Shown: one piece after another, positions 34,019 to 40,373 of the stretch
How the letters are laid out: each line of letters begins with the position of its first letter
How positions within the stretch are numbered: the stretch's first letter is position 1
Assembly (NCBI GenBank): GCA_963770895.1
Contig: CAVYRF010000002.1
Coordinates: 544,001 to 608,000 of the forward strand
From: an uncultured Acidobacteriota bacterium
GTDB taxonomy: Bacteria > Acidobacteriota > Thermoanaerobaculia > Multivoradales > UBA5704
Length of the DNA: 64,000 bases
Direction of reading: 5' to 3'
Made by a program: the position numbers and the translations under genes
The notes under the pieces: generated by a model
What the model saw: the letters and a program-made list of their open reading frames with translations, nothing else
What the model was told of the DNA's origin: nothing
The model's database searches: none

Positions 34019-35386
34019 ATGGCAAAGATCGACAGCGTGAACCCGGCAACCGGCCAGACCCTGGCGAGCTACGACGAGATGAGCGCCAGGCAGGTCGGCG
34101 ACGCGATCGCCGCGGCGCACGCGGCGTTTCTCGACTGGCGCGACACGGACTTCGCGACGCGTGCCGAAGTGCTGCGCACGGCGGCGCGCCTGCTGCGCGA
34201 GCGGCGGCGCGACTATGCCGAGCTGATGAGCCGCGAAATGGGCAAGGTCGTGGCCGGCGGCCTGGGCGAAGTCGACAAGTGCGCCTGGGTCTGCGAGCAC
34301 TACGCCGCGCACGCGGCGACCCTGCTGGCGCCCCAGCCGGTCGAAACCGAGGCCCGCCGCAGCTACGTCGCCTTCGAACCGCTGGGCGTCGTGCTCGCGG
34401 TGATGCCCTGGAACTTCCCCTTCTGGCAGGTCTTCCGCTTTGCCGCGCCGGGCCTGATGGCGGGCAACGCGGGCCTGCTCAAGCACGCCTCCAACGTGCC
34501 GGGGTGCGCCCTGGCGATCGAAGAGGTGCTGCGCGACGCCGGTCTGCCGGCCGGCCTGTTCCGCACCCTGTTGATCCCGTCGCGCGACGTCCCGAGCGTG
34601 ATCGAGCACCCCCTGGTGGTCGCCGTCACGCTGACCGGCAGCACGCCCGCCGGCAAGGCCGTCGCCGCCGCGGCCGGCGGTCAGCTCAAGAAGACCGTGC
34701 TGGAGCTGGGCGGCAGCGATCCCTACCTGATCCTGGACGACGCCGACCTGGACAGCGCCGTCGCCACCTGTGTCGAAAGCCGCCTGATCAACACCGGCCA
34801 GAGCTGCATCGCCGCCAAGCGCTTCCTCATCCCGCGCCGCCACGCCGCCGCGATCGAGCAGCGCTTCGTCGCGGCCATGGCCGCCAAGGTGATGGGCGAC
34901 CCGCTCCAGGACGGCGTCCACCTGGGTCCGCTGGCACGCCGCGACCTGCGCGACGACCTGCACGCCCAGGTCCAGGCCAGCCGCCGCGCCGGCGCCCGCT
35001 GCCTGCTGGGCGGTGAGCTTCCCGACGGCCCAGGAGCCTTTTATCCGCCGACCGTGCTGGCCGACGTCAAGCCGGGCATGCCCGCCTACGACGAAGAGCT
35101 GTTCGGACCGGTCGCGGCGCTGATCGCCGTCGACGGCGAAGACGAAGCCGTGCGCGTCGCCAACGATTCCGTCTTCGGCCTGGGCGCCGCCGTCTTCACC
35201 GCCGACCCCGCCCGCGGCGAAGCGGTAGCCCGCCGCCTGGCCGCCGGCAGCTGCTTCGTCAACGAGCTGGTCAAGTCCGACCCCCGCCTCCCCTTCGGCG
35301 GCATCAAGCAGTCCGGCTACGGCCGCGAGCTGGGCGCCTTCGGCATCCGGGAATTCGTCAACATCAAGACCGTCTACGTAAAATGA
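34019..35386 (+). CDS. NAD(P)-dependent succinate-semialdehyde dehydrogenase (Sad/GabD-like)
   Basis: PWNFPFWQ, LKHASN, LTGS, LELGGSDP, GQSCIA, EELFGP, FGGIKQSGYGRE. Confidence 0.92.
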   Translation: MAKIDSVNPATGQTLASYDEMSARQVGDAIAAAHAAFLDWRDTDFATRAEVLRTAARLLRERRRDYAELMSREMGKVVAGGLGEVDKCAWVCEHYAAHAATLLAPQPVETEARRSYVAFEPLGVVLAVMPWNFPFWQVFRFAAPGLMAGNAGLLKHASNVPGCALAIEEVLRDAGLPAGLFRTLLIPSRDVPSVIEHPLVVAVTLTGSTPAGKAVAAAAGGQLKKTVLELGGSDPYLILDDADLDSAVATCVESRLINTGQSCIAAKRFLIPRRHAAAIEQRFVAAMAAKVMGDPLQDGVHLGPLARRDLRDDLHAQVQASRRAGARCLLGGELPDGPGAFYPPTVLADVKPGMPAYDEELFGPVAALIAVDGEDEAVRVANDSVFGLGAAVFTADPARGEAVARRLAAGSCFVNELVKSDPRLPFGGIKQSGYGRELGAFGIREFVNIKTVYVK

Positions 35387-35387
35387 T

Positions 35388-35433
35388 GCCGGGGGCGATC
35401 TCCGGAGATGATCTCCGGCGGTGATCTCCCGGC
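35388..35433. terminator. GC-rich nested inverted repeat between convergent genes
   Basis: GCCGGGGG...CCGGAGAT-G-ATCTCCGG...CTCCCGGC. Confidence 0.5.
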
Positions 35434-35449
35434 GCCGAAGCGAACGGAC

Positions 35450-35626
35450 CTAACAGTTCTTACAGCTCTTCGCCGTCGGGTTCTCGCAGGTGCAGCCGGT
35501 GATCGGGCAGGTGTTGACCACCGAACAGGCGGGAGTCAGCGCCCCGCCCCCCGCCACGCCGGCCAGCGAATCCAGCCGGTAGAGGGATTCGGCCATCAGC
35601 CGCAGCTTCTTCGTGCTCTTCTTCAT
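35450..35626 (-). CDS. Small double-glycine-leader, Cys/Thr-rich RiPP precursor-like peptide (58 aa)
   Basis: AAAGGAG RBS; MKKSTKKLRLMAESLYRLDSLAGVAGG|GALTPACSVVNTCPITGCTCENPTAKSCKNC. Confidence 0.75.
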   Translation of the reverse strand: MKKSTKKLRLMAESLYRLDSLAGVAGGGALTPACSVVNTCPITGCTCENPTAKSCKNC

Positions 35627-35722
35627 CGCGTCTCCTTTGGGGTTGCACCGCGCTCGTAATGAGCAGTGCCGCCGCGCCCCAGAATCGGGCCGGCGACGCC
35701 GGATACGCCGGCCGCTGATCGG

Positions 35723-35751
35723 TTGACAAGCGGCTGAGCATCCGGCACCAT
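35723..35751 (+). promoter_or_regulatory. Sigma70-type promoter for the structured RNA
   Basis: TTGACA-N17-CACCAT. Confidence 0.55.
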
Positions 35752-35877
35752 AGCTACATCGCTCCGCGCGCTCTTTTCGAGAGCGACGCGGCGGCTCCAA
35801 AGAGGCTTGGGCGGCCCACGGAGCTGGGCGGGCTGGGACCTGCCAAATAGGAAGACGCCCAGAAAGGAGGTGGTCCA

Positions 35878-35922
35878 GTGGACTTAGATAAACCCGGTTT
35901 GGTGGAGGTGGCGTCCTCGTAA
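35878..35922 (+). CDS. 14-aa small ORF MDLDKPGLVEVASS
   Basis: GTG 7 nt after GGAGG within AGAAAGGAGGTGGTCCAG; TAA stop. Confidence 0.45.
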   Translation: MDLDKPGLVEVASS

Positions 35923-36022
35923 GGGGAGATCCTCCTAAGCCTGGCTCTCTGGTTCTGACCAGTGCTGCAGGTCGGCTCCCCTCCAAGCGGGGGGAACCCA
36001 ACGCCACTGAGACCAACCCCTC

Positions 36023-36050
36023 AAGGCCCCGGCTTCGGCCGGGGCCTTTT
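36023..36050 (+). terminator. Intrinsic terminator
   Basis: AAGGCCCCGGC-TTCG-GCCGGGGCCTT followed by a T-rich tail. Confidence 0.9.
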
Positions 36051-36230
36051 GTGTTTCTGCCCGCCTCGACGCGGAGCCTCTTGATGCCGCCGTTGCCTCG
36101 CGCGCCAGTCCTCCCCTGACTCGCCGCCCCGCCGCAGCCTGGCGCGGCAGATGCATCCCTGCGCCGACAGCGCCGGTTTCGCTGTACGCTGCAGCTGACG
36201 GGCGGTGGTCGACGGGAGGGAGGTTCGCGG

Positions 36231-39200
36231 ATGGGGATCTGGGATCAACTGTCACGCTGGCCGGTCATCCAGCAAATCGCCACGCGGGACCTCAAGGGGC
36301 TGGGCGCCACCGCCGCTTCGGCGCACAGCCGCGGCCTGGCGCCGCGCACGCAGGCGGCGGACCGGGTGGTGCCTTCGGTGTGCCCGTACTGCGCCGTGGG
36401 CTGCGGCCAGCTGGTGTTCGTCAAGGACGAAAAGATCACCGACATCGAAGGCGATCCCGATTCGCCGGTTTCGAACGGCTGCCTCTGTCCCAAGGGGTCG
36501 GCGACGTTCCAGCTGGTCACCGGCGCCCATCGCCTGCAGCAGGTGCTCTACCGCCGGCCGCACGGCACCGAATGGGAAGTGCTGCCGCTCGAAACGGCCA
36601 TGGACATGGTGGCCGAGCGCGTCAAGGCGACCCGCGACGCCACCTTCATGGAGGAGCACCCCGACGGCTTCCCGGTGCGCCACACCCTGGGCATCGCCCA
36701 CCTGGGCGGCGCCACCCTCGACAACGAAGAGAACTACCTGATCAAGAAGCTGTTCAACAACCTGGGGATCGTGCAGATCGAAAACCAGGCCCGGATATGA
36801 CATTCCGCCACGGTCCCCAGTTTGGGGACCTCCTTCGGTAGGGGCGGCGCCACCACCTTCCCGGGCGACCTGCAGAACTCCGACTGCATCGTCATCCAGG
36901 GATCCAACATGGCGGAATGCCACCCGGTGGCGTTCCGCTACGTCATGGAAGCGAAGCGGCGCGGCGCGACGATCATCCACGTCGACCCGCGCTTCACCCG
37001 CACCAGCGCGGTCGCGGACCTGCACGTGCCGATCCGCGCCGGCAGCGACATCGCCTTCCTGGGCGCGGTGGTCAACTACGTCTTCGAGCACGAGCGCTGG
37101 TTCCACGACTACGTGGTCGCCTACACCAACGCGCCCGTCCTGGTGTCGGAAGACTTCCGCGACACCGAGGACCTGGACGGCCTGTTCAGCGGCTGGGACG
37201 CCGAGGGCGCCCGCTACAATCCCAGATCCTGGCAGTACGACGGCACCGAGATGCATCCCGCCGGGGGCCATCGCGAGCTGACCGCCGGCGAGCTCCACTC
37301 GCGGCGCGCCGTCGAAAGCGAGTGCGCCTCGCCGCTGCCGCTCGACCCGACGCTGCAACATCCGCGCTGCGTCTTCCAGGTCCTGAAGCGCCACTTCGCC
37401 CGCTACACGCCCGAGATGGTGGACGCGGTGTGCGGCGTGCCGCGCCACCTGTTCCTGCGCGTCGCCGAAGCGCTGTGCGCCAGCTCGGGGCGCGACCGCA
37501 CCGCCGCCTTCTGCTACGCCGTCGGCTGGACGCAGCACTCGGTGGGCGTGCAGTACATCCGCACCGCGGCGATCATCCAGCTGCTGCTCGGCAACATGGG
37601 CCGCCCCGGCGGCGGCATCCTGGCGCTGCGCGGGCACGCTTCCATCCAGGGCTCGACCGACGTGCCGACGCTGTTCAACCTGCTGCCCGGCTACATGGCG
37701 ATGCCGCAGGCCGGCAAGGACCTGGACTTCGCCACCTACGTCAAGCGCAACACCCCCGCCGGCGGCTGGTGGTCCGAGTTCCCCAAGTACGCGGTGTCGC
37801 TGCTCAAGGCGTGGTACGGCGCCGAAGCGACCGCCGACAACGGCTGGGCCTACGATCACCTGCCCTTCGTCCACGGCGACCATTCGCACATGACGACCGT
37901 CACGGCGATGGCCGACGGGCTGGTCAAGGGCTACTTCCTGATGGGCGAAAACCCCACCGTCGGCTCGATGCACGGCGCCCTGCAGCGCGCCGGGATGCGC
38001 CAGCTGGACTGGCTGGTGGTGCGCGATTTCGCGCTCATCGAAAGCGCCGACTTCTGGCGCCAGGCGCCGGAGATCTCGCGCGGCGAGGTGCGGCCCGAAG
38101 ACATCAAGACCGAGGTGTTCTTCTTCCCCTGCGCCGCGCACACCGAAAAGGACGGCACCTTCACCAACACCCAGCGCCTGTTGCAGTGGCACCACAAGGC
38201 GGTCGAGCCGCCGGGCGATTGCCGCAGCGAGCTGCACTTCGCCTTCCACCTGGGGCGCCGCCTGCGCCAGCTGTACGCCGGATCGCAGGCGCGGCGCGAC
38301 CGGCCGCTGCTGGCGATGACCTGGGACTATCCGACCACGGGGCCGACCGCGGAGCCCAGCGCCGAGGCGGTGCTGGCCGAGATCAACGGCTACAGCATCG
38401 CGCCCGACGGCAGCCGCAAGCCGGTAGGCGGCTTCACCGAGCTCAAAGCCGACGGCTCGACCGCCTGCGGCTGCTGGATCTATGCCGGCTGCCGCAAGGA
38501 CGGCGTGAACCTGACGGCGCGCCGCAAGCCGGCCCGCGAACAGAACTGGGTGGCGCTGGAATGGGCGTGGGCGTGGCCCGCCAACCGCCGCATCCTGTAC
38601 AACCGAGCCTCCGCCGACCCGCAGGGGCGCCCCTGGTCCGAGCGCAAGCGCTGCGTGTGGTGGGACGCGGACGCCAAGCGATGGACGGGCGAAGACGTGC
38701 CCGACTTCATCGCCGACCGGCCGCCGTCCTACTGTCCGCCCGAGGGCGCCACCGGCCTGGCCACCATCGCCGGCGATGCGACCGTTCATGCTGCAAGGCG
38801 ACGGGCGCGGCTGGCTGTTCGCTCCCAACGGCCTGCTGGACGGGCCGCTGCCCGCCCATTACGAGCCCGAAGAGGCGCAGTTCCACAACCCGTTCTACGC
38901 CCAGCAGTGCAACCCCACTCGCCTGGAATGGCGGCGCCGCGACAACCCCTACCATCGCGCCTGGGACGATCCCCGCTATCCGCACGTGATGACCACCTAC
39001 CGGCTGACCGAGCACCACACCGCCGGCGCCATGAGCCGCTGGCTGTCGTGGCTGTCCGAGCTGCAGCCCGAAATGTTCTGCGAGGTGTCGCCGGAGCTGG
39101 CGCGCCAATACGGCCTGGTCAACGGCGGCTGGGCGACGCTGAGCACCGCGCGCGCCGAGATCGAGGCGCGGGTGCTGGTGACCCAGCGCATGCCGCCGCT

Positions 39201-39558
39201 GCGCCTGGGCAGGCGCGTCGTGCACCAGATCGGCGTGCCCTACCATTGGGGCAGCAAGGGGAGGGTGGTGGGCGACGCCGCCAACGAGCTGATCAGCTTC
39301 GTCGGCGACCCCAACGTCTCGATTCAGGAGTCCAAGGCGCTGACCTGCGCCATCCAGCCCGGCCGCCGCAGCCGCGGTCGGCGGGTGGTCACCAGCGGCC
39401 CCCTGGCGGCGGCACTGACGGCGACGCCGGCGCCGGAGTCCGTGGACGGCGAACCGGCGGGCGGCGCCTGGTCCCGCGACCAGCCGCCGGTTTCGGCGCG
39501 TCAGCCCGGCCCGCACGGCATGGTGGCATCGGCGGCACAGCGCAACGAGGAGAGCTGA
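36231..39558 (+). CDS. fdnG: Selenocysteine-containing formate dehydrogenase alpha subunit (Mo/W-bisPGD); in-frame UGA at 36798 and one frameshift near 38780
   Basis: CPYCAVGCG..LCPKG Fe-S motif; ENQARI-U-HSATVPSLG; GSNMAECHP; ALRGHASIQG; C-terminal TTYRLTEHH continues in another frame. Confidence 0.92.
36812..36830 (+). promoter_or_regulatory. Bacterial SECIS element
   Basis: Hairpin GGTCCCCA-GTT-TGGGGACC starting 11 nt after the UGA. Confidence 0.8.
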
Positions 39559-39560
39559 GC

Positions 39561-40373
39561 ATGGCCAAGGGGTTCTTCACCGACACCACGCTGTGCATCG
39601 GCTGCAAGGCCTGCGAAGTGGCGTGCAAGCAGTGGAACCAGCTGCCGGACGACGGCCTGCAGTTCACCGCCATGTCGTACGACAACACCGCCGCCCTGGG
39701 AGCCTCCACCTGGCGGCACGTCTCGTTCATCGAACGGCCGGTGCCGCTGTCGGGACAGGAAACGGGGCTGGGCAATTTTTCCTGGCTGCTGATGTCCGAC
39801 GTGTGCAAGCACTGCCACCGCGCCGGCTGCCTGGAAGCCTGCCCCACCGGCGCCATCATCCGCACGGAATTCGACAGCGTCTACGTGCAGCCCGACATCT
39901 GCAACGGCTGCGGGTATTGCGTCGTCTCCTGCCCGTTCGGGGTCATCGACCGCCGCTCCGACGACGGCCGCGCCTGGAAGTGCACGCTGTGCTACGACCG
40001 GCTGCGCGGCGATCTGGAGCCCGCCTGCGCCAAGGCCTGCCCCACCGACTCGATCCTCTTCGGCGAGGTGGAAGAGCTCAAGGTGCACGCCATCGATCGC
40101 GTCCAGCGCCTGCACCGGCACGGCGTCGGCGAAGCCTGGCTGTACGGCGCCGACGAAGCCGGACAGCCCGGCACCGAAGGGCTGAACGCCTTCTTCCTGC
40201 TGCTCGACCGGCCCGAGGTGTACAACCTGCCGCCCAACCCGACGGCTCCCGCCAAGCGCGCCGCCGCCAGCTGGGGCGCCATGGGATTGGCCCTGGCCGG
40301 CCTGGCTGCCGCGGCGCTGGCCGCGGTGCTCTCGACCGCGGGCGACGATCGAGATCGGGACCGGTACGCATGA
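39561..40373 (+). CDS. fdnH: Formate dehydrogenase beta subunit (4x[4Fe-4S], C-terminal TM helix)
   Basis: CIGCKACEVAC, CKHC..CLEACP, CNGCGYCVVSCP, KCTLCYDR..PACAKACP; GAGGAG RBS. Confidence 0.9.
   Translation: MAKGFFTDTTLCIGCKACEVACKQWNQLPDDGLQFTAMSYDNTAALGASTWRHVSFIERPVPLSGQETGLGNFSWLLMSDVCKHCHRAGCLEACPTGAIIRTEFDSVYVQPDICNGCGYCVVSCPFGVIDRRSDDGRAWKCTLCYDRLRGDLEPACAKACPTDSILFGEVEELKVHAIDRVQRLHRHGVGEAWLYGADEAGQPGTEGLNAFFLLLDRPEVYNLPPNPTAPAKRAAASWGAMGLALAGLAAAALAAVLSTAGDDRDRDRYA

What the first reader, a model, noticed from the sequence alone, without database searches (positions are those of the whole stretch)
35723..36050. Stand-alone structured RNA with an 18-nt anti-16S 'super Shine-Dalgarno' driving a 14-codon ORF
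Seen in sequence: TTGACA-N17-CACCAT; a 5' hairpin (35764-35791); AGAAAGGAGGTGGTCCAG at 35861-35878; a GTG 7 nt after GGAGG; ORF MDLDKPGLVEVASS using codons rare in this high-GC window (TTA, AAA); and a strong UUCG terminator. The stop codon sits in a GNRA loop (TCCTC-GTAA-GGGGA) on a longer stem where a second in-ORF GGAGG pairs with CCTCC (35931-35935). Further hairpins follow (CTGGT-TCTG-ACCAG; TCCCCT..GGGGGA), and alternative long-range pairings exist (AGGCTTGGG/CCTAAGCCT; ACCTGC/GCAGGT). Established: the typical bacterial 16S 3' end reads CUGGAUCACCUCCUUUCU, so the motif pairs over 18 nt with one G-U, far beyond a normal 5-9 nt SD and into the helix 45 region. The locus lacks tmRNA, RNase P, SRP and 6S hallmarks as far as I can see. 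Inference: a dedicated ribosome-binding or sequestering RNA, or a dual-function sRNA/micropeptide unit. I cannot assign it to a known family, and it is the best candidate for an undescribed system in this window.
Basis: partly seen in the sequence, partly recalled or inferred. Interest (0 to 1): 0.8.

Follow-up and report, generated by a model that had tools for sequence, protein, structure and literature searches.

The report
Ribosome-docking small mRNA with super-SD
This is a real, well-conserved and expressed RNA of about 290 bases that can pair with the whole free 3' tail of 16S rRNA and carries a tiny reading frame; it is a structurally elaborate relative, outside the alpha-proteobacteria, of the little-known 'rre' small mRNAs, whose function is still unknown.

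Summary
The 18-nt motif pairs with this genome's own 16S 3' end (17 Watson-Crick pairs plus one G-U). It is the only such site in the 8.16-Mb genome followed by GTG and a short ORF.

The locus is a single-copy, stand-alone gene with its own promoter and terminator.
- Homologs: 42-45 of 61 related genomes, 24 of 151 genomes sampled across the phylum, and 40 of 81 genomes of a second phylum.
- No flanking gene is conserved across the family.
- It is not in Rfam.
- Covariation supports a pseudoknotted 5' domain and a long-range helix that locks the 3' half of the ORF.
- The 13-16-codon ORF is intact in 57 of 57 homologs, yet its sequence drifts with no codon periodicity. Translation seems to be selected, not the peptide.
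- Motif substitutions are almost all wobble-preserving against an invariant 16S tail.
- Soil metatranscriptome contigs from 3 studies cover the RNA.

The kind is already described. rreB and rreR are small mRNAs of alpha-proteobacteria (Hahn et al. 2017); rreB binds 30S subunits and is weakly translated, and its function is unknown.

Verdict: a new structural variant of a known kind. 30S docking is likely; its physiological role remains open.

The parts
35723..35751 (+). Promoter: -35 TTGACA (35723-35728), 17-nt spacer, -10-like CACCAT (35746-35751)
   Evidence: Read from the sequence. Both hexamers align in the 30 order-level homologs. A loose pattern finds a TTGAC-like -35 in 45 of 57 family loci, 41 of them with xAxxxT at the right spacing. 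The simple scanner did not call it.
35758..36056 (+). Inferred transcript of about 290-300 nt. The start is inferred from the -10 box and the end from the terminator.
   Evidence: RNA-library contigs span 35766-36016 (X9), 35771-36017 (X6, 0 differences, adapter letters on both sides), 35781-36051 (X10) and 35784-35927 / 35800-36003 (X14). Exact ends were not determined.
35764..35791 (+). P1, the 5' hairpin; its sequence varies among homologs
   Evidence: Folded. The arms change together in the alignment (seen by eye, not counted).
35792..35826 (+). P2 (35792-35798 with 35820-35826) enclosing P2a (35804-35806 with 35814-35816). The P2a loop TTGGGCG holds the 5' strand of pseudoknot PK1.
   Evidence: On the MAFFT alignment A4 (63 sequences), P2 is 97.1% paired with compensatory changes in 5 of 7 pairs, and P2a is 91.5% paired with 2 of 3.
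35809..35860 (+). Pseudoknot PK1: GGGCG (35809-35813) pairs with CGCCC (35856-35860), which ends directly 5' of the anti-16S motif
   Evidence: 97.5% paired, with compensatory changes in 3 of 5 pairs, including G-C to A-U in 6 sequences. PK1 was not part of the model used for alignment A2, where it is also seen.
35827..35844 (+). P3 hairpin (35827-35832 with 35839-35844) with the conserved loop CTGGGA
   Evidence: 96.6% paired, with compensatory changes in 6 of 6 pairs.
35861..35878 (+). Anti-16S motif ('super Shine-Dalgarno') AGAAAGGAGGTGGTCCAG; its last G is the first base of the start codon
   Evidence: Among 57 homologs, the 13-nt core has no mismatch to the 16S tail in 55, and the observed changes are A>G and C>U, plus two U>C.
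35878..35922 (+). Mini-ORF: GTG, 14 codons (MDLDKPGLVEVASS), TAA
   Evidence: Intact in 57 of 57 homologs at 13-16 codons. All length differences are multiples of 3. Stop codons are TAA 30, TAG 26, TGA 1. Substitutions show no codon periodicity.
35907..36008 (+). P5, a long-range helix: GGTGGCGT (35907-35914, codons 10-13) pairs with ACGCCACT (36001-36008)
   Evidence: 96.9% paired on A3 (53 sequences) and 97.4% on A4. Three of 8 pairs show compensatory changes, and slid controls reach at most 67.5%.
35915..35927 (+). P6 hairpin with the stop codon in its loop (CCTC-GTAA-GGGG)
   Evidence: Read from the sequence. The stop lies in the loop in the homologs inspected. Pairing counts are poor (70%) because indels disturb the alignment.
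35931..35935 (+). CCTCC, an anti-SD-like pentamer just after P6
   Evidence: Exact CCTCC is found within 25 nt after the stop in 35 of 57 homologs, and a relaxed form in 48 of 57. Its pairing partner is not settled.
35950..35995 (+). P7 (CTGGT..ACCAG, 35950-35963; specific to this genus in this form) and P8 (C-rich / G-rich hairpin, about 35977-35995)
   Evidence: Read from the sequence. A CCCC-loop-GGGG hairpin precedes the conserved ACCCAAC block throughout alignments A3 and A4. Pairs were not counted.
35834..36000 (+). Possible tertiary pairing PK2: P3 loop TGGG (35834-35837) with CCCA (35997-36000)
   Evidence: 84.4% paired. The GGG/CCC core never varies, so it is uninformative. The two flanking pairs show both-side changes (1 and 9 sequences). 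Support is weak.
36023..36056 (+). Intrinsic terminator (11-bp stem, TTCG loop, T-rich tail)
   Evidence: A terminator-like pattern is found in 54 of 57 homologs, and all 57 have a strong hairpin (at most -20 kcal/mol) in the same place.

Best explanation
The locus is a stand-alone gene for an abundant small mRNA of about 290 nt of the 'rre' kind. This is a structurally elaborate family found outside the alpha-proteobacteria.

Proposed working:
1. A pseudoknotted 5' domain (P2, P2a, PK1, P3) and a long-range helix (P5, perhaps PK2) hold out a stretch of about 45-55 nt that has no covariation-supported pairing. It contains the extended SD, a 7-nt spacer, GUG and eight A/U-richer codons.
2. The 30S subunit docks there. 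The whole free 3' tail of 16S rRNA pairs with 13-18 nt of the RNA.
3. Initiation at GUG and translation of the 14 codons require both this very long SD duplex and helix P5 to be opened. Codons 10-13 lie inside P5, and the stop codon lies in a hairpin loop. Translation is therefore slow or rare.
4. Ribosome engagement, not the peptide, is the selected activity. By analogy with rreB, ribosome engagement probably governs the RNA's own turnover.

Shown here: the gene, its conservation, its structure, the maintained ORF, the substitution pattern that preserves pairing to 16S, and its presence in RNA libraries.
Inferred: 30S binding, weak translation and ribosome-dependent decay (shown experimentally only for rreB), and any physiological role.
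For: - The motif is complementary to the genome's own 16S tail and is unique in the genome in this form.
- The gene is single-copy.
- Homologs: 45 of 61 relatives by blastn, 42 of them with E of 3.2e-12 or lower; 24 of 151 genomes across the phylum; 40 of 81 genomes of a second phylum.
- No conserved neighbour: at most 7 of 57 loci share any flanking family.
- The ORF is kept open in 57 of 57 homologs, and length changes are only multiples of 3. Over the same span the other two frames carry stops in 76% and 82% of distinct sequences. Entropy is equal at codon positions 1, 2 and 3 (1.24, 1.29, 1.28).
- Motif substitutions are A>G and C>U, which keep a wobble pair with 16S, plus only two U>C. 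The 16S tail is unchanged in all 4 divergent genomes whose 16S gene was recovered, out of 5 searched.
- Structure on an alignment not fitted to it: 92.2% of cells paired, 23 of 38 pairs with compensatory changes, 0 of 500 shuffles as high, and slid controls at 49% or less.
- RNA-library contigs from 4 runs in 3 studies cover the RNA. One is identical to the window and bounded by adapter letters.
- Experimental precedent for the kind: rreB co-sediments with 30S, is weakly translated, and is stabilised when its start codon is replaced (PMC5711450, abstract and Discussion).
Against: - There are no binding, toeprint or ribosome-profiling data for this family.
- Nested thermodynamic folding predicts that the GGAGG..TCC core is mostly paired (mean unpaired probability 0.29 over the 13-nt core). 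Only the 5' AGAAA is open (0.62-0.80). The usual predicted partner is the CGCCC stretch just upstream, so accessibility depends on PK1 winning.
- That competing hairpin is 84.6% pairable. It lacks covariation, but it is not excluded.
- The peptide is not conserved, so translation might be irrelevant.
- The RNA was not found in 16 of 61 relatives or in 127 of 151 genomes of the phylum sample, so it is dispensable or replaced by something else.
- For rreB itself, over-production gave no phenotype, and binding to E. coli ribosomes was weak.
Confidence: 0.72

Rival explanations
1. This is an ordinary small-protein gene. The 14-residue peptide is the functional product, and the long SD only sets its expression level.
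For: The ORF is intact in 57 of 57 homologs with a conserved C-terminal E-V-A-S/A motif. Hahn et al. regard RreB and RreR as conserved small proteins.
Against: - Codons 2-9 vary equally at all three codon positions (1.24, 1.29, 1.28).
- The conserved codons 10-13 are conserved at the nucleotide level, third positions included, and lie in helix P5, which covaries with its 3' partner.
- About 100 nt of covarying structure lies upstream of the SD, which a plain peptide gene does not need.
- Peptides of the other lineage-specific types are unrelated to this one.
Confidence: 0.12
2. This is a purely non-coding regulatory RNA, either a base-pairing sRNA or a protein sponge. The SD-like stretch serves intramolecular pairing or a non-ribosomal partner, and the ORF is incidental.
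For: The structure is rich and covaries. Folding predicts the SD core to be paired. Several GGAGG/CCTCC elements could act as switches.
Against: - The frame is kept open, the stop stays in place, and indels are multiples of 3 in every homolog examined.
- GTG or TTG is always present at a spacing of 7-8 nt.
- Substitutions in the motif are those tolerated by an invariant partner with the 16S tail sequence. No internal partner covaries with the motif.
- The same motif + GTG + short-ORF design recurs in unrelated RNA families of other phyla.
Confidence: 0.08
3. This is a cis-acting leader or attenuator that controls the downstream selenocysteine-type formate dehydrogenase operon.
For: It lies 180 nt upstream of, and on the same strand as, a molybdopterin oxidoreductase gene. 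It has a short ORF followed by a terminator, as attenuators do.
Against: No flanking gene family is shared by more than 7 of 57 loci. The RNA has its own conserved promoter and a strong terminator in every homolog. Hahn et al. also report non-conserved context outside Bradyrhizobiaceae.
Confidence: 0.02
4. This is a chance match or a relic fragment of an rRNA gene.
For: The motif is the reverse complement of the 16S 3' end.
Against: No rRNA similarity extends beyond the 18 nt, and Rfam finds no rRNA match in the window. The pattern was expected 0.01 times in the window. The locus is conserved as a unit in two phyla.
Confidence: 0.01

Closest known systems
rreB / rreR small mRNAs of alpha-proteobacteria (Hahn et al., RNA Biol 2017, PMC5711450)
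   Same: - A stand-alone short transcript with its own promoter and terminator.
[quoted passage not shown]
- An sORF of 14-18 codons.
- Conserved within a clade, without conserved neighbours outside close kin.
- The 5' A-rich part of the motif is predicted open and the rest is predicted paired (here; Discussion of the paper).
- Part of the ORF pairs with a downstream segment in rreR and rreB as well (my RNAalifold runs).
   Different: - No sequence or model similarity beyond the motif. Model R1 scores at most 18.6 bits on the 98 loci of the first 100 scan loci that are not family members; these include rreB-, rreR- and CC2171-type loci.
- This RNA is nearly twice as long (about 290 nt against 165 nt).
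- It has a covarying 5' domain of about 100 nt with a pseudoknot abutting the SD, and a multi-helix 3' domain.
- It occurs in Acidobacteriota-titled genomes and a second phylum, not in alpha-proteobacteria.
- 30S binding, weak translation and start-codon-dependent decay are untested here.
Rfam RF01867, CC2171 sRNA (Caulobacter; also Rhizobiales and Methylobacteriaceae)
   Same: Its consensus begins ..GAAAGGAGGUGAUCCAGUG, the same motif plus GUG. It gives the only Rfam match at the locus with an E-value below 0.1 (35854-35999, full model length). It is an expressed sRNA of unknown function (passages of bioRxiv 10.1101/2022.01.24.477521).
   Different: The score is 21.6 bits against a gathering score of 75, and several model helices are unpaired in the alignment. 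True members score 99-102 bits. The ORFs differ (MSHC.., 21-27 codons).
Rfam RF02471, Ms_IGR-5 sRNA (Actinobacteria)
   Same: - Its consensus holds GGAAGGAGGUGGUCC, and further on GAGGUGGC.
- It matches an Acidobacteria-titled locus, L060, above its gathering score (47.7 against 45).
- By eye only, that locus and its like (L071, L122, L128) share the design: GAGGUGGC near the ORF end pairing with a ..CACC segment that is preceded by an AAUCC-like block.
   Different: There is no match to this window at E of 10 or less, nor to the own genome. R1 does not match L071, L122 or L128, and scores 12.8 bits on L060. Homology is not established. The papers found only list the family.
tmRNA
   Same: By general knowledge, it resembles tmRNA only in layout: a short ORF presented between pseudoknotted or helical domains of a stable, abundant RNA that engages the ribosome.
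   Different: There is no tRNA-like domain. ARAGORN finds no tmRNA and Rfam gives no hit. This RNA has an SD and a start codon, which tmRNA lacks.
Leader-peptide transcription attenuators
   Same: A short ORF followed by alternative helices and an intrinsic terminator.
   Different: There is no conserved downstream gene. No run of regulatory codons is conserved in the ORF. It has its own promoter and appears as a discrete RNA in RNA libraries.

Membership tests
rre-type small mRNAs (as defined in PMC5711450) | Stand-alone small transcript with its own promoter and terminator | tested here: met
   Conserved TTGACA-N17-xAxxAT promoter and a terminator. RNA-library contigs span about 35766-36051.
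rre-type small mRNAs (as defined in PMC5711450) | At least 16 nt complementary to the 3' end of the organism's own 16S rRNA, reaching the first base of the start codon | tested here: met
   18 nt with one G-U against the genome's own 16S gene. The last G of the motif is the G of GTG.
rre-type small mRNAs (as defined in PMC5711450) | GTG start and an sORF of roughly 14-18 codons, conserved in the clade | tested here: met
   Starts are GTG in 56 and TTG in 1 of 57 homologs. ORFs are 13-16 codons in 57 of 57. In 11 further loci of a second phylum, ORFs are 14-15 codons.
rre-type small mRNAs (as defined in PMC5711450) | Predominant association with 30S subunits / the ribosomal fraction | not testable with these tools
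   Shown only for rreB (abstract).
rre-type small mRNAs (as defined in PMC5711450) | Weak translation caused by the extended SD and GTG; stability that depends on the start codon | not testable with these tools
   Shown only for rreB (abstract and Discussion).
rreB / rreR sequence families | Sequence similarity of the RNA or peptide to RreB (..KRCHLA..) or RreR (MSxxxLE..) | tested here: not met
   The peptide is unrelated. R1 scores at most 18.6 bits on 98 of the 100 scan loci searched.
Rfam RF01867 (CC2171) | Covariance-model score at or above the gathering score of 75 bits | tested here: not met
   21.6 bits. The whole-genome search found no match.
Rfam RF02471 (Ms_IGR-5) | Covariance-model score at or above the gathering score of 45 bits | tested here: not met
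   Not among the matches with E of 10 or less at the locus. No match in the own genome.
tmRNA / RNase P / SRP / 6S and all other Rfam 15 families | Any match at the family's gathering score | tested here: not met
   0 matches in the 64-kb window. ARAGORN finds 0 tRNA or tmRNA genes.

The most novel reading that the evidence does not exclude
This family would be the most elaborate branch of a class of RNAs that is widespread across bacterial phyla and largely unrecognised. Members seen here include rreB, rreR, CC2171, Ms_IGR-5, a 6-codon MRYxL type in Acidobacteriota, DCxxGL[RH] types in Planctomycetota, and others.

Under this reading, their job is to engage the complete free 3' tail of 16S rRNA on a pseudoknot-framed landing loop. 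The mini-ORF would be a mechanical 'test track', not a message. The class would act as a probe, cap or checkpoint for the mature 3' end of idle or newly made 30S subunits, or as a gauge of free-30S concentration read out through its own ribosome-triggered decay.
Probability: 0.2. Interest if true: 0.85.

Novelty: new variant of a known kind. Interest (0 to 1): 0.62.

Why it matters
The rre RNAs are among the few natural transcripts known to pair with the entire free tail of 16S rRNA, and nobody knows why cells keep them.

This finding adds four things:
- The design is not an alpha-proteobacterial oddity. It recurs, in unrelated sequence families, in genomes titled Acidobacteriota, Fibrobacteraceae/Krumholzibacteriia, Planctomycetota and others, and it links two orphan Rfam families (CC2171, Ms_IGR-5).
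- It gives a new family, absent from Rfam, that is large, covaries strongly and is visible in soil metatranscriptomes. Its pseudoknot-framed docking loop offers concrete structural hypotheses for cryo-EM and mutagenesis.
- The ORF is preserved while the peptide is not. This points to the act of ribosome engagement as the selected function.
- The wobble-only substitution pattern is evolutionary evidence that the partner is the invariant 16S tail.

Together these make the open question of what rre RNAs do more tractable. They also bear on how very long SD duplexes affect initiation and on how the 16S 3' end is surveyed.

Tried and rejected
- Rfam at gathering thresholds over the whole window gave nothing. 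The permissive search gave only the weak CC2171 hit plus terminator look-alikes.
- ARAGORN found no tRNA or tmRNA.
- The RNAalifold consensus of alignment A1 paired CGCCC with the SD. Counted on A2, that local SD-sequestering hairpin shows no covariation: 489 of 500 shuffles score as high. I therefore prefer PK1, but I cannot exclude the hairpin as an alternative state.
- The single-sequence MFE pairs the SD with a segment after P5. That partner is specific to the genus (9 of 56 transcripts) and is not conserved.
- PK2 is only weakly supported, because its core never varies.
- P6 pair counts are poor because of indels in the alignment.
- Neighbour analysis found only local synteny.
- The flanks of the RNA (35341-35750 and 36079-36365) had no cover in the four RNA runs. 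With contigs this is not evidence of absence. One X10 contig runs on past the terminator into unlike sequence, which probably comes from a relative with a different flank.
- Contig depths (40 to 1277) cannot rank expression.
- I searched five relatives that lacked a blastn hit for the motif. Two had a match, neither matched R1, and the one I read (L204) lies in what looks like coding sequence. I did not establish what, if anything, replaces the RNA there.
- The Ms_IGR-5 family search rang in none of the 14 control genomes, so that negative result carries little weight.
- Other strong anti-16S sites in the own genome (C2:1333260, C2:964518) lie in open frames and have no short ORF.
- Literature:
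  - Searches for CC2171, Ms_IGR-5, rreB/rreR, the paper's title phrase, and combinations of 'extended Shine-Dalgarno', 'small mRNA', 'sORF' and '30S' found one paper on the class (PMC5711450). Three papers from the same group cite it. I found no description outside alpha-proteobacteria in the held library; subscription journals are not covered.
  - Of PMC5711450 I read the abstract and sections 13, 18 and 19. I did not read sections 14-17. Its supplements are closed, so Fig. S1 and the list of taxa with analogs could not be seen and may widen the known range.
  - PMC4974804 was seen only as a search listing.
Full report
1. THE OBSERVATION

They are:
- the TTGACA-N17-CACCAT promoter candidate (35723-35751);
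- a 5' hairpin (35764-35791);
- the 18-nt motif AGAAAGGAGGTGGTCCAG (35861-35878);
- GTG seven nt after GGAGG (35878-35880);
- a 14-codon ORF (MDLDKPGLVEVASS) with its TAA at 35920-35922 in the loop of a small hairpin;
- CCTCC at 35931-35935;
- a strong terminator with a TTCG loop at 36023-36048 plus a T-rich tail.

I located the genome's own 16S gene and read its 3' end. It ends CTGGATCACCTCCTTTCT, so the motif pairs with it over 18 nt with a single G-U. The predicted duplex energy is -32.0 kcal/mol, against -9.2 for a plain AGGAGG.

2. NOT CHANCE, AND UNIQUE IN THE GENOME

- The 17-nt pattern occurs once in the window, where shuffles give 0.01.
- I scanned the whole 8.16-Mb genome for 18-mers that pair with the tail, allowing G-U. 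Three reach 18 of 18: this locus, the antisense of the 16S gene (trivial), and a G-rich site inside an open frame.
- Of nine exact AGGAGGTGRTCY sites, only this one is followed by GTG and a short ORF.
- The covariance model built later finds one copy in the genome (163 bits). The next hit scores 17.2 bits.

3. A CONSERVED STAND-ALONE GENE

Distribution:
- blastn with the 298-nt region found matches in 45 of 61 related genomes, the own genome included. Three of these are only short weak matches, so 42 are solid, with E of 3.2e-12 or lower.
- Model R1, built from the core, matched 24 of 151 genomes sampled across the phylum. The pattern is clade-wise, for example 5 of 5 and 6 of 6 in two families.
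- A pattern scan of the species-level genome collection also brought in two family members whose record titles name a Fibrobacteraceae MAG (L047) and a Krumholzibacteriia MAG (L108), scoring 85.6 and 96.7 bits. The tool treats their genomes as one phylum, and 40 of 81 sampled genomes of that phylum have the RNA.
- Named members close to the window are titled Acidobacteria or Acidobacteriota MAGs (L136, L139). The window's genome itself is unnamed.

Independence of the gene:
- No flanking gene is conserved. No flanking ORF family is shared by more than 7 of 57 loci.
- The promoter hexamers align in the 30 order-level homologs.
- A terminator-like pattern is present in 54 of 57 loci, and all 57 have a strong hairpin in that place.

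4. THE MINI-ORF IS MAINTAINED, BUT THE PEPTIDE IS NOT

- In 57 of 57 loci (56 distinct sequences) a GTG (56) or TTG (1) opens a frame of 13-16 codons. The distribution is 14 codons in 44 loci, 15 in 8, 16 in 4 and 13 in 1. Stops are TAA (30), TAG (26) or TGA (1).
- Every length difference is a multiple of three (-3, +3, +6), and these occur in several separate lineages.
- Of 12 further loci from the second phylum, 11 parsed the same way, with 14-15 codons. The twelfth has a variant motif that my pattern missed.
- Over the same span, the other two frames contain stops in 76% and 82% of the 38 distinct 14-codon sequences.
- Substitutions nevertheless show no codon periodicity. Mean column entropy at codon positions 1, 2 and 3 is 1.24, 1.29 and 1.28 for codons 2-9.
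- Codons 10-13 (E-V-A-S) are conserved at all three positions. This is explained by RNA structure (section 6).
- The variable first half of the ORF is less G+C-rich than the rest: codons 2-8 of the window copy hold 9 G/C of 21 (counted).

I read this as selection for an open frame that stops at a fixed place, meaning selection for ribosome passage, not for a particular peptide. Kinship among the sequences inflates such counts, so I give no probability.

5. THE PARTNER OF THE MOTIF BEHAVES LIKE AN INVARIANT SEQUENCE

- Across the 57 loci, the six G positions of the 13-nt core AAGGAGGTGATCC never change.
- The changes seen are A>G (at four positions, 42 sequence instances) and C>U (13 instances), which keep a wobble pair with the 16S tail. 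There are only two U>C changes, which break a pair.
- 55 of 57 sequences have no mismatch to the tail in the core.
- I recovered the 16S gene from four divergent carriers of variant motifs (GGGGGTGATCC, GATTC, GATCT, GATTT). Their tails are unchanged. A fifth genome had no assembled 16S gene.
- So the RNA drifts only within what an invariant CUGGAUCACCUCCUUUC-type partner tolerates.
- The two bases between ..TCC and GTG, and the bases 5' of AAGG, vary freely in distant members. The selected complementarity is therefore 13-16 nt, which by general knowledge is the single-stranded tail, and does not extend into helix 45.

6. STRUCTURE

I counted pairs on a MAFFT alignment that was not fitted to any structure (A4: 63 distinct sequences from both phyla).

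Overall, the proposed structure has 92.2% of cells paired and 23 of 38 pairs with compensatory changes. None of 500 shuffles is as high on four of five measures, and partners slid by 1-3 columns reach at most 49%.

By helix:
- P2: 5 of 7 pairs compensatory.
- P2a: 2 of 3.
- P3: 6 of 6.
- Pseudoknot PK1 (loop GGGCG with CGCCC directly 5' of the motif): 3 of 5, including G-C to A-U in six sequences.
- Long-range helix P5 (GGTGGCGT of codons 10-13 with ACGCCACY about 90 nt downstream): 3 of 8, 97.4% paired. It was also counted separately on A3.
- A tertiary pairing of the P3 loop (UGGG) with the CCCA block next to P5 is possible but weakly supported.

The stop codon sits in the loop of hairpin P6 in the homologs inspected. 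An anti-SD-like CCTCC follows in 35 of 57.

The segment from the SD to codon 9 has no covariation-supported pairing. Nested thermodynamic folding does predict that the GGAGG..TCC core pairs, mostly with the CGCCC stretch, and leaves only the 5' AGAAA open. This is the same picture Hahn et al. describe for rreB. That hairpin shows no covariation and competes with PK1, so an open/closed switch is conceivable but not shown.

7. EXPRESSION

Contigs from four metatranscriptomic runs in three studies lie on the RNA:
- 35771-36017, with no differences from the window and adapter letters on both sides (X6);
- 35766-36016 (X9);
- 35781-36051 (X10);
- 35784-35927 and 35800-36003 (X14).

This shows that the RNA, or close relatives of it, is present in RNA libraries. 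It does not fix the ends or the expression level.

8. WHAT IS KNOWN

Rfam evidence:
- The permissive Rfam search gave a weak full-length match to CC2171 (RF01867), at 21.6 bits against a gathering score of 75. Its consensus starts with the same motif plus GUG.
- True CC2171 members among the scan loci score 99-102 bits.

The defining paper:
- Literature search led to Hahn et al. 2017 (PMC5711450). I read the abstract and sections 13, 18 and 19.
- rreB of Bradyrhizobiaceae is a 165-nt mRNA. It has a 17-nt region complementary to the 16S 3' end that includes the first base of a GTG start, and it encodes 14 residues.
- It sits mainly in the ribosomal fraction and co-sediments with 30S. It is weakly translated because of the long SD and the GTG start. 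It becomes more stable when the start codon is replaced.
- rreR is the 18-codon counterpart in Rhodobacterales.
- Function is 'elusive', and over-production had no growth effect.

Cross-checks in my scan:
- The scan recovered these types, including a locus titled Afipia broomeae ATCC 49717 with an rreB-type ORF.
- Further searches found no description of the class outside alpha-proteobacteria in the held library.

9. THE DESIGN IS MUCH WIDER THAN DESCRIBED

My rough estimate, not a tool result, is that a few hundred chance hits are expected in a collection of 596 Gb, so single hits mean little. Sorting the 120 loci by the ORF behind the motif gives:

| Type | Loci |
|---|---|
| CC2171-like | 41 |
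| rreR-like | 32 |
| rreB-like | 6 |
| this family | 4 |
| Ms_IGR-5-like | 3 |
| MRYxL 6-codon type (Acidobacteriota- or Acidiferrales-titled MAGs) | 4 |
| other short ORFs | 21 |
| ORFs longer than 40 codons (probably ordinary genes or chance) | 9 |

- The 'other short ORFs' include recurring DCxxGL[RH] peptides in Phycisphaerae- and Planctomycetaceae-titled MAGs, and a pair in Burkholderiales-titled records.
- One Acidobacteria-titled locus (L060) matches Rfam Ms_IGR-5, an actinobacterial sRNA family, above its gathering score. That consensus also carries GGAAGGAGGUGGUCC. The papers that mention Ms_IGR-5 only list it.
- Model R1 does not recognise any of these other types, scoring at most 18.6 bits on 98 of the 100 loci searched.
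- The genomes of L060 and L037 have no R1 match.
- The shared trait is therefore a design, not demonstrable homology.
- In rreR and rreB too, part of the ORF pairs with a downstream segment, and each RNA has an internal CACCUC-like element.

10. MECHANISM: WHAT IS SHOWN AND WHAT IS INFERRED

Shown:
- a conserved, expressed, single-copy RNA gene;
- a covarying fold whose two domains frame an unconstrained SD-GUG-ORF segment;
- a maintained ORF;
- a motif that evolves as if paired to the invariant 16S tail.

Inferred from rreB and from general knowledge of initiation:
- The 30S subunit docks through a duplex of 13-18 bp.
- The initiating ribosome fits on the open segment.
- Moving on requires breaking both the long SD duplex and P5, so translation is slow or rare.
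- Ribosome engagement controls the RNA's fate.

The physiological role is unknown. Stoichiometric sequestration of ribosomes is unlikely, given the rreB data. A role as a gauge of free 30S subunits, or in surveying or capping the 16S 3' end, is speculation that the evidence does not exclude.

11. RIVALS

- A plain peptide gene is disfavoured by the lack of codon periodicity and by the large covarying structure.
- A purely non-coding RNA is disfavoured by the maintained frame, start and stop.
- A leader of the downstream formate dehydrogenase operon is disfavoured by the absence of conserved context.
- Chance, or an rRNA relic, is excluded.

12. VERDICT

It is a new, structurally elaborate variant of the rre kind in new phyla, and it is absent from Rfam.

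Limits:
- There are no experimental data for this family.
- The distribution figures come from samples.
- Kinship inflates the conservation counts.
- The 16S tails of the second phylum were not checked.
- The supplements of the key paper were closed.

Noticed in passing
window 35450-35626, minus strand: A 58-codon ORF with an AAGGAG ribosome-binding site, transcribed divergently from the RNA. It encodes MKKSTKK..., with a Gly-rich stretch followed by a C-terminal part rich in Cys and Thr (..TPACSVVNTCPITGCTCENPTAKSCKNC). From recall only, it resembles a precursor of a ribosomally made, modified peptide. No family search was run.
   Followed up: partly
window 36231-40373, plus strand: A molybdopterin oxidoreductase gene of the formate dehydrogenase alpha type, with Fe4S4 and Molybdopterin Pfam domains. 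It has an in-frame TGA at 36798-36800 in the context ..ARI-TGA-HSATV.., which fits a selenocysteine codon. Further on, the same frame turns into Arg/Ala-rich low-complexity sequence. It then reads a 4Fe-4S-type protein starting MAKGFFTDTTLCIGCKAC.., so a frame change or a gene boundary lies in between. This was not resolved, and no SECIS element was sought.
   Followed up: partly
L037, L056, L146, L149 (and L079): A different rre-like family in Acidobacteriota- or Acidiferrales-titled MAGs. It has the same motif and GTG but an ORF of only 6 codons (MRYxLR or similar), and a conserved upstream region of its own. The genome of L037 has no match to model R1.
   Followed up: partly
L060 2623-2818 (also L071, L122, L128): Rfam family Ms_IGR-5, described as actinobacterial, matches an Acidobacteria-titled MAG above its gathering score (47.7 against 45 bits). 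Its consensus holds the anti-16S motif. Similar loci occur in MAGs titled Terriglobales, Terriglobia and Polarisedimenticolia, with ORFs of 15-19 codons ending ..EV...
   Followed up: partly
L053, L057, L090, L092, L101; L059, L110; L036, L080: Records titled Planctomycetota or Phycisphaerae carry the motif plus GTG, followed by recurring short ORFs. These are ..DCxxGL[RH]x (10-12 codons), MTYGDCTGECLGGFSY (seen twice), and M[ED]Y.C...RGG.A. They suggest further lineage-specific families of the same design.
   Followed up: no
window 34019-35386, plus strand: An aldehyde dehydrogenase gene (Pfam Aldedh, E 2.4e-133) lies upstream. It looks ordinary.
   Followed up: yes
G000 C2:1333260-1333277, minus strand: A G-rich 18-mer (GGGGAGGGGGTGATCCGG) could pair with the whole 16S tail through several G-U pairs. 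It is followed directly by ATG and an open frame of at least 133 codons, and it seems to lie within a longer coding region. Probably chance.
   Followed up: partly
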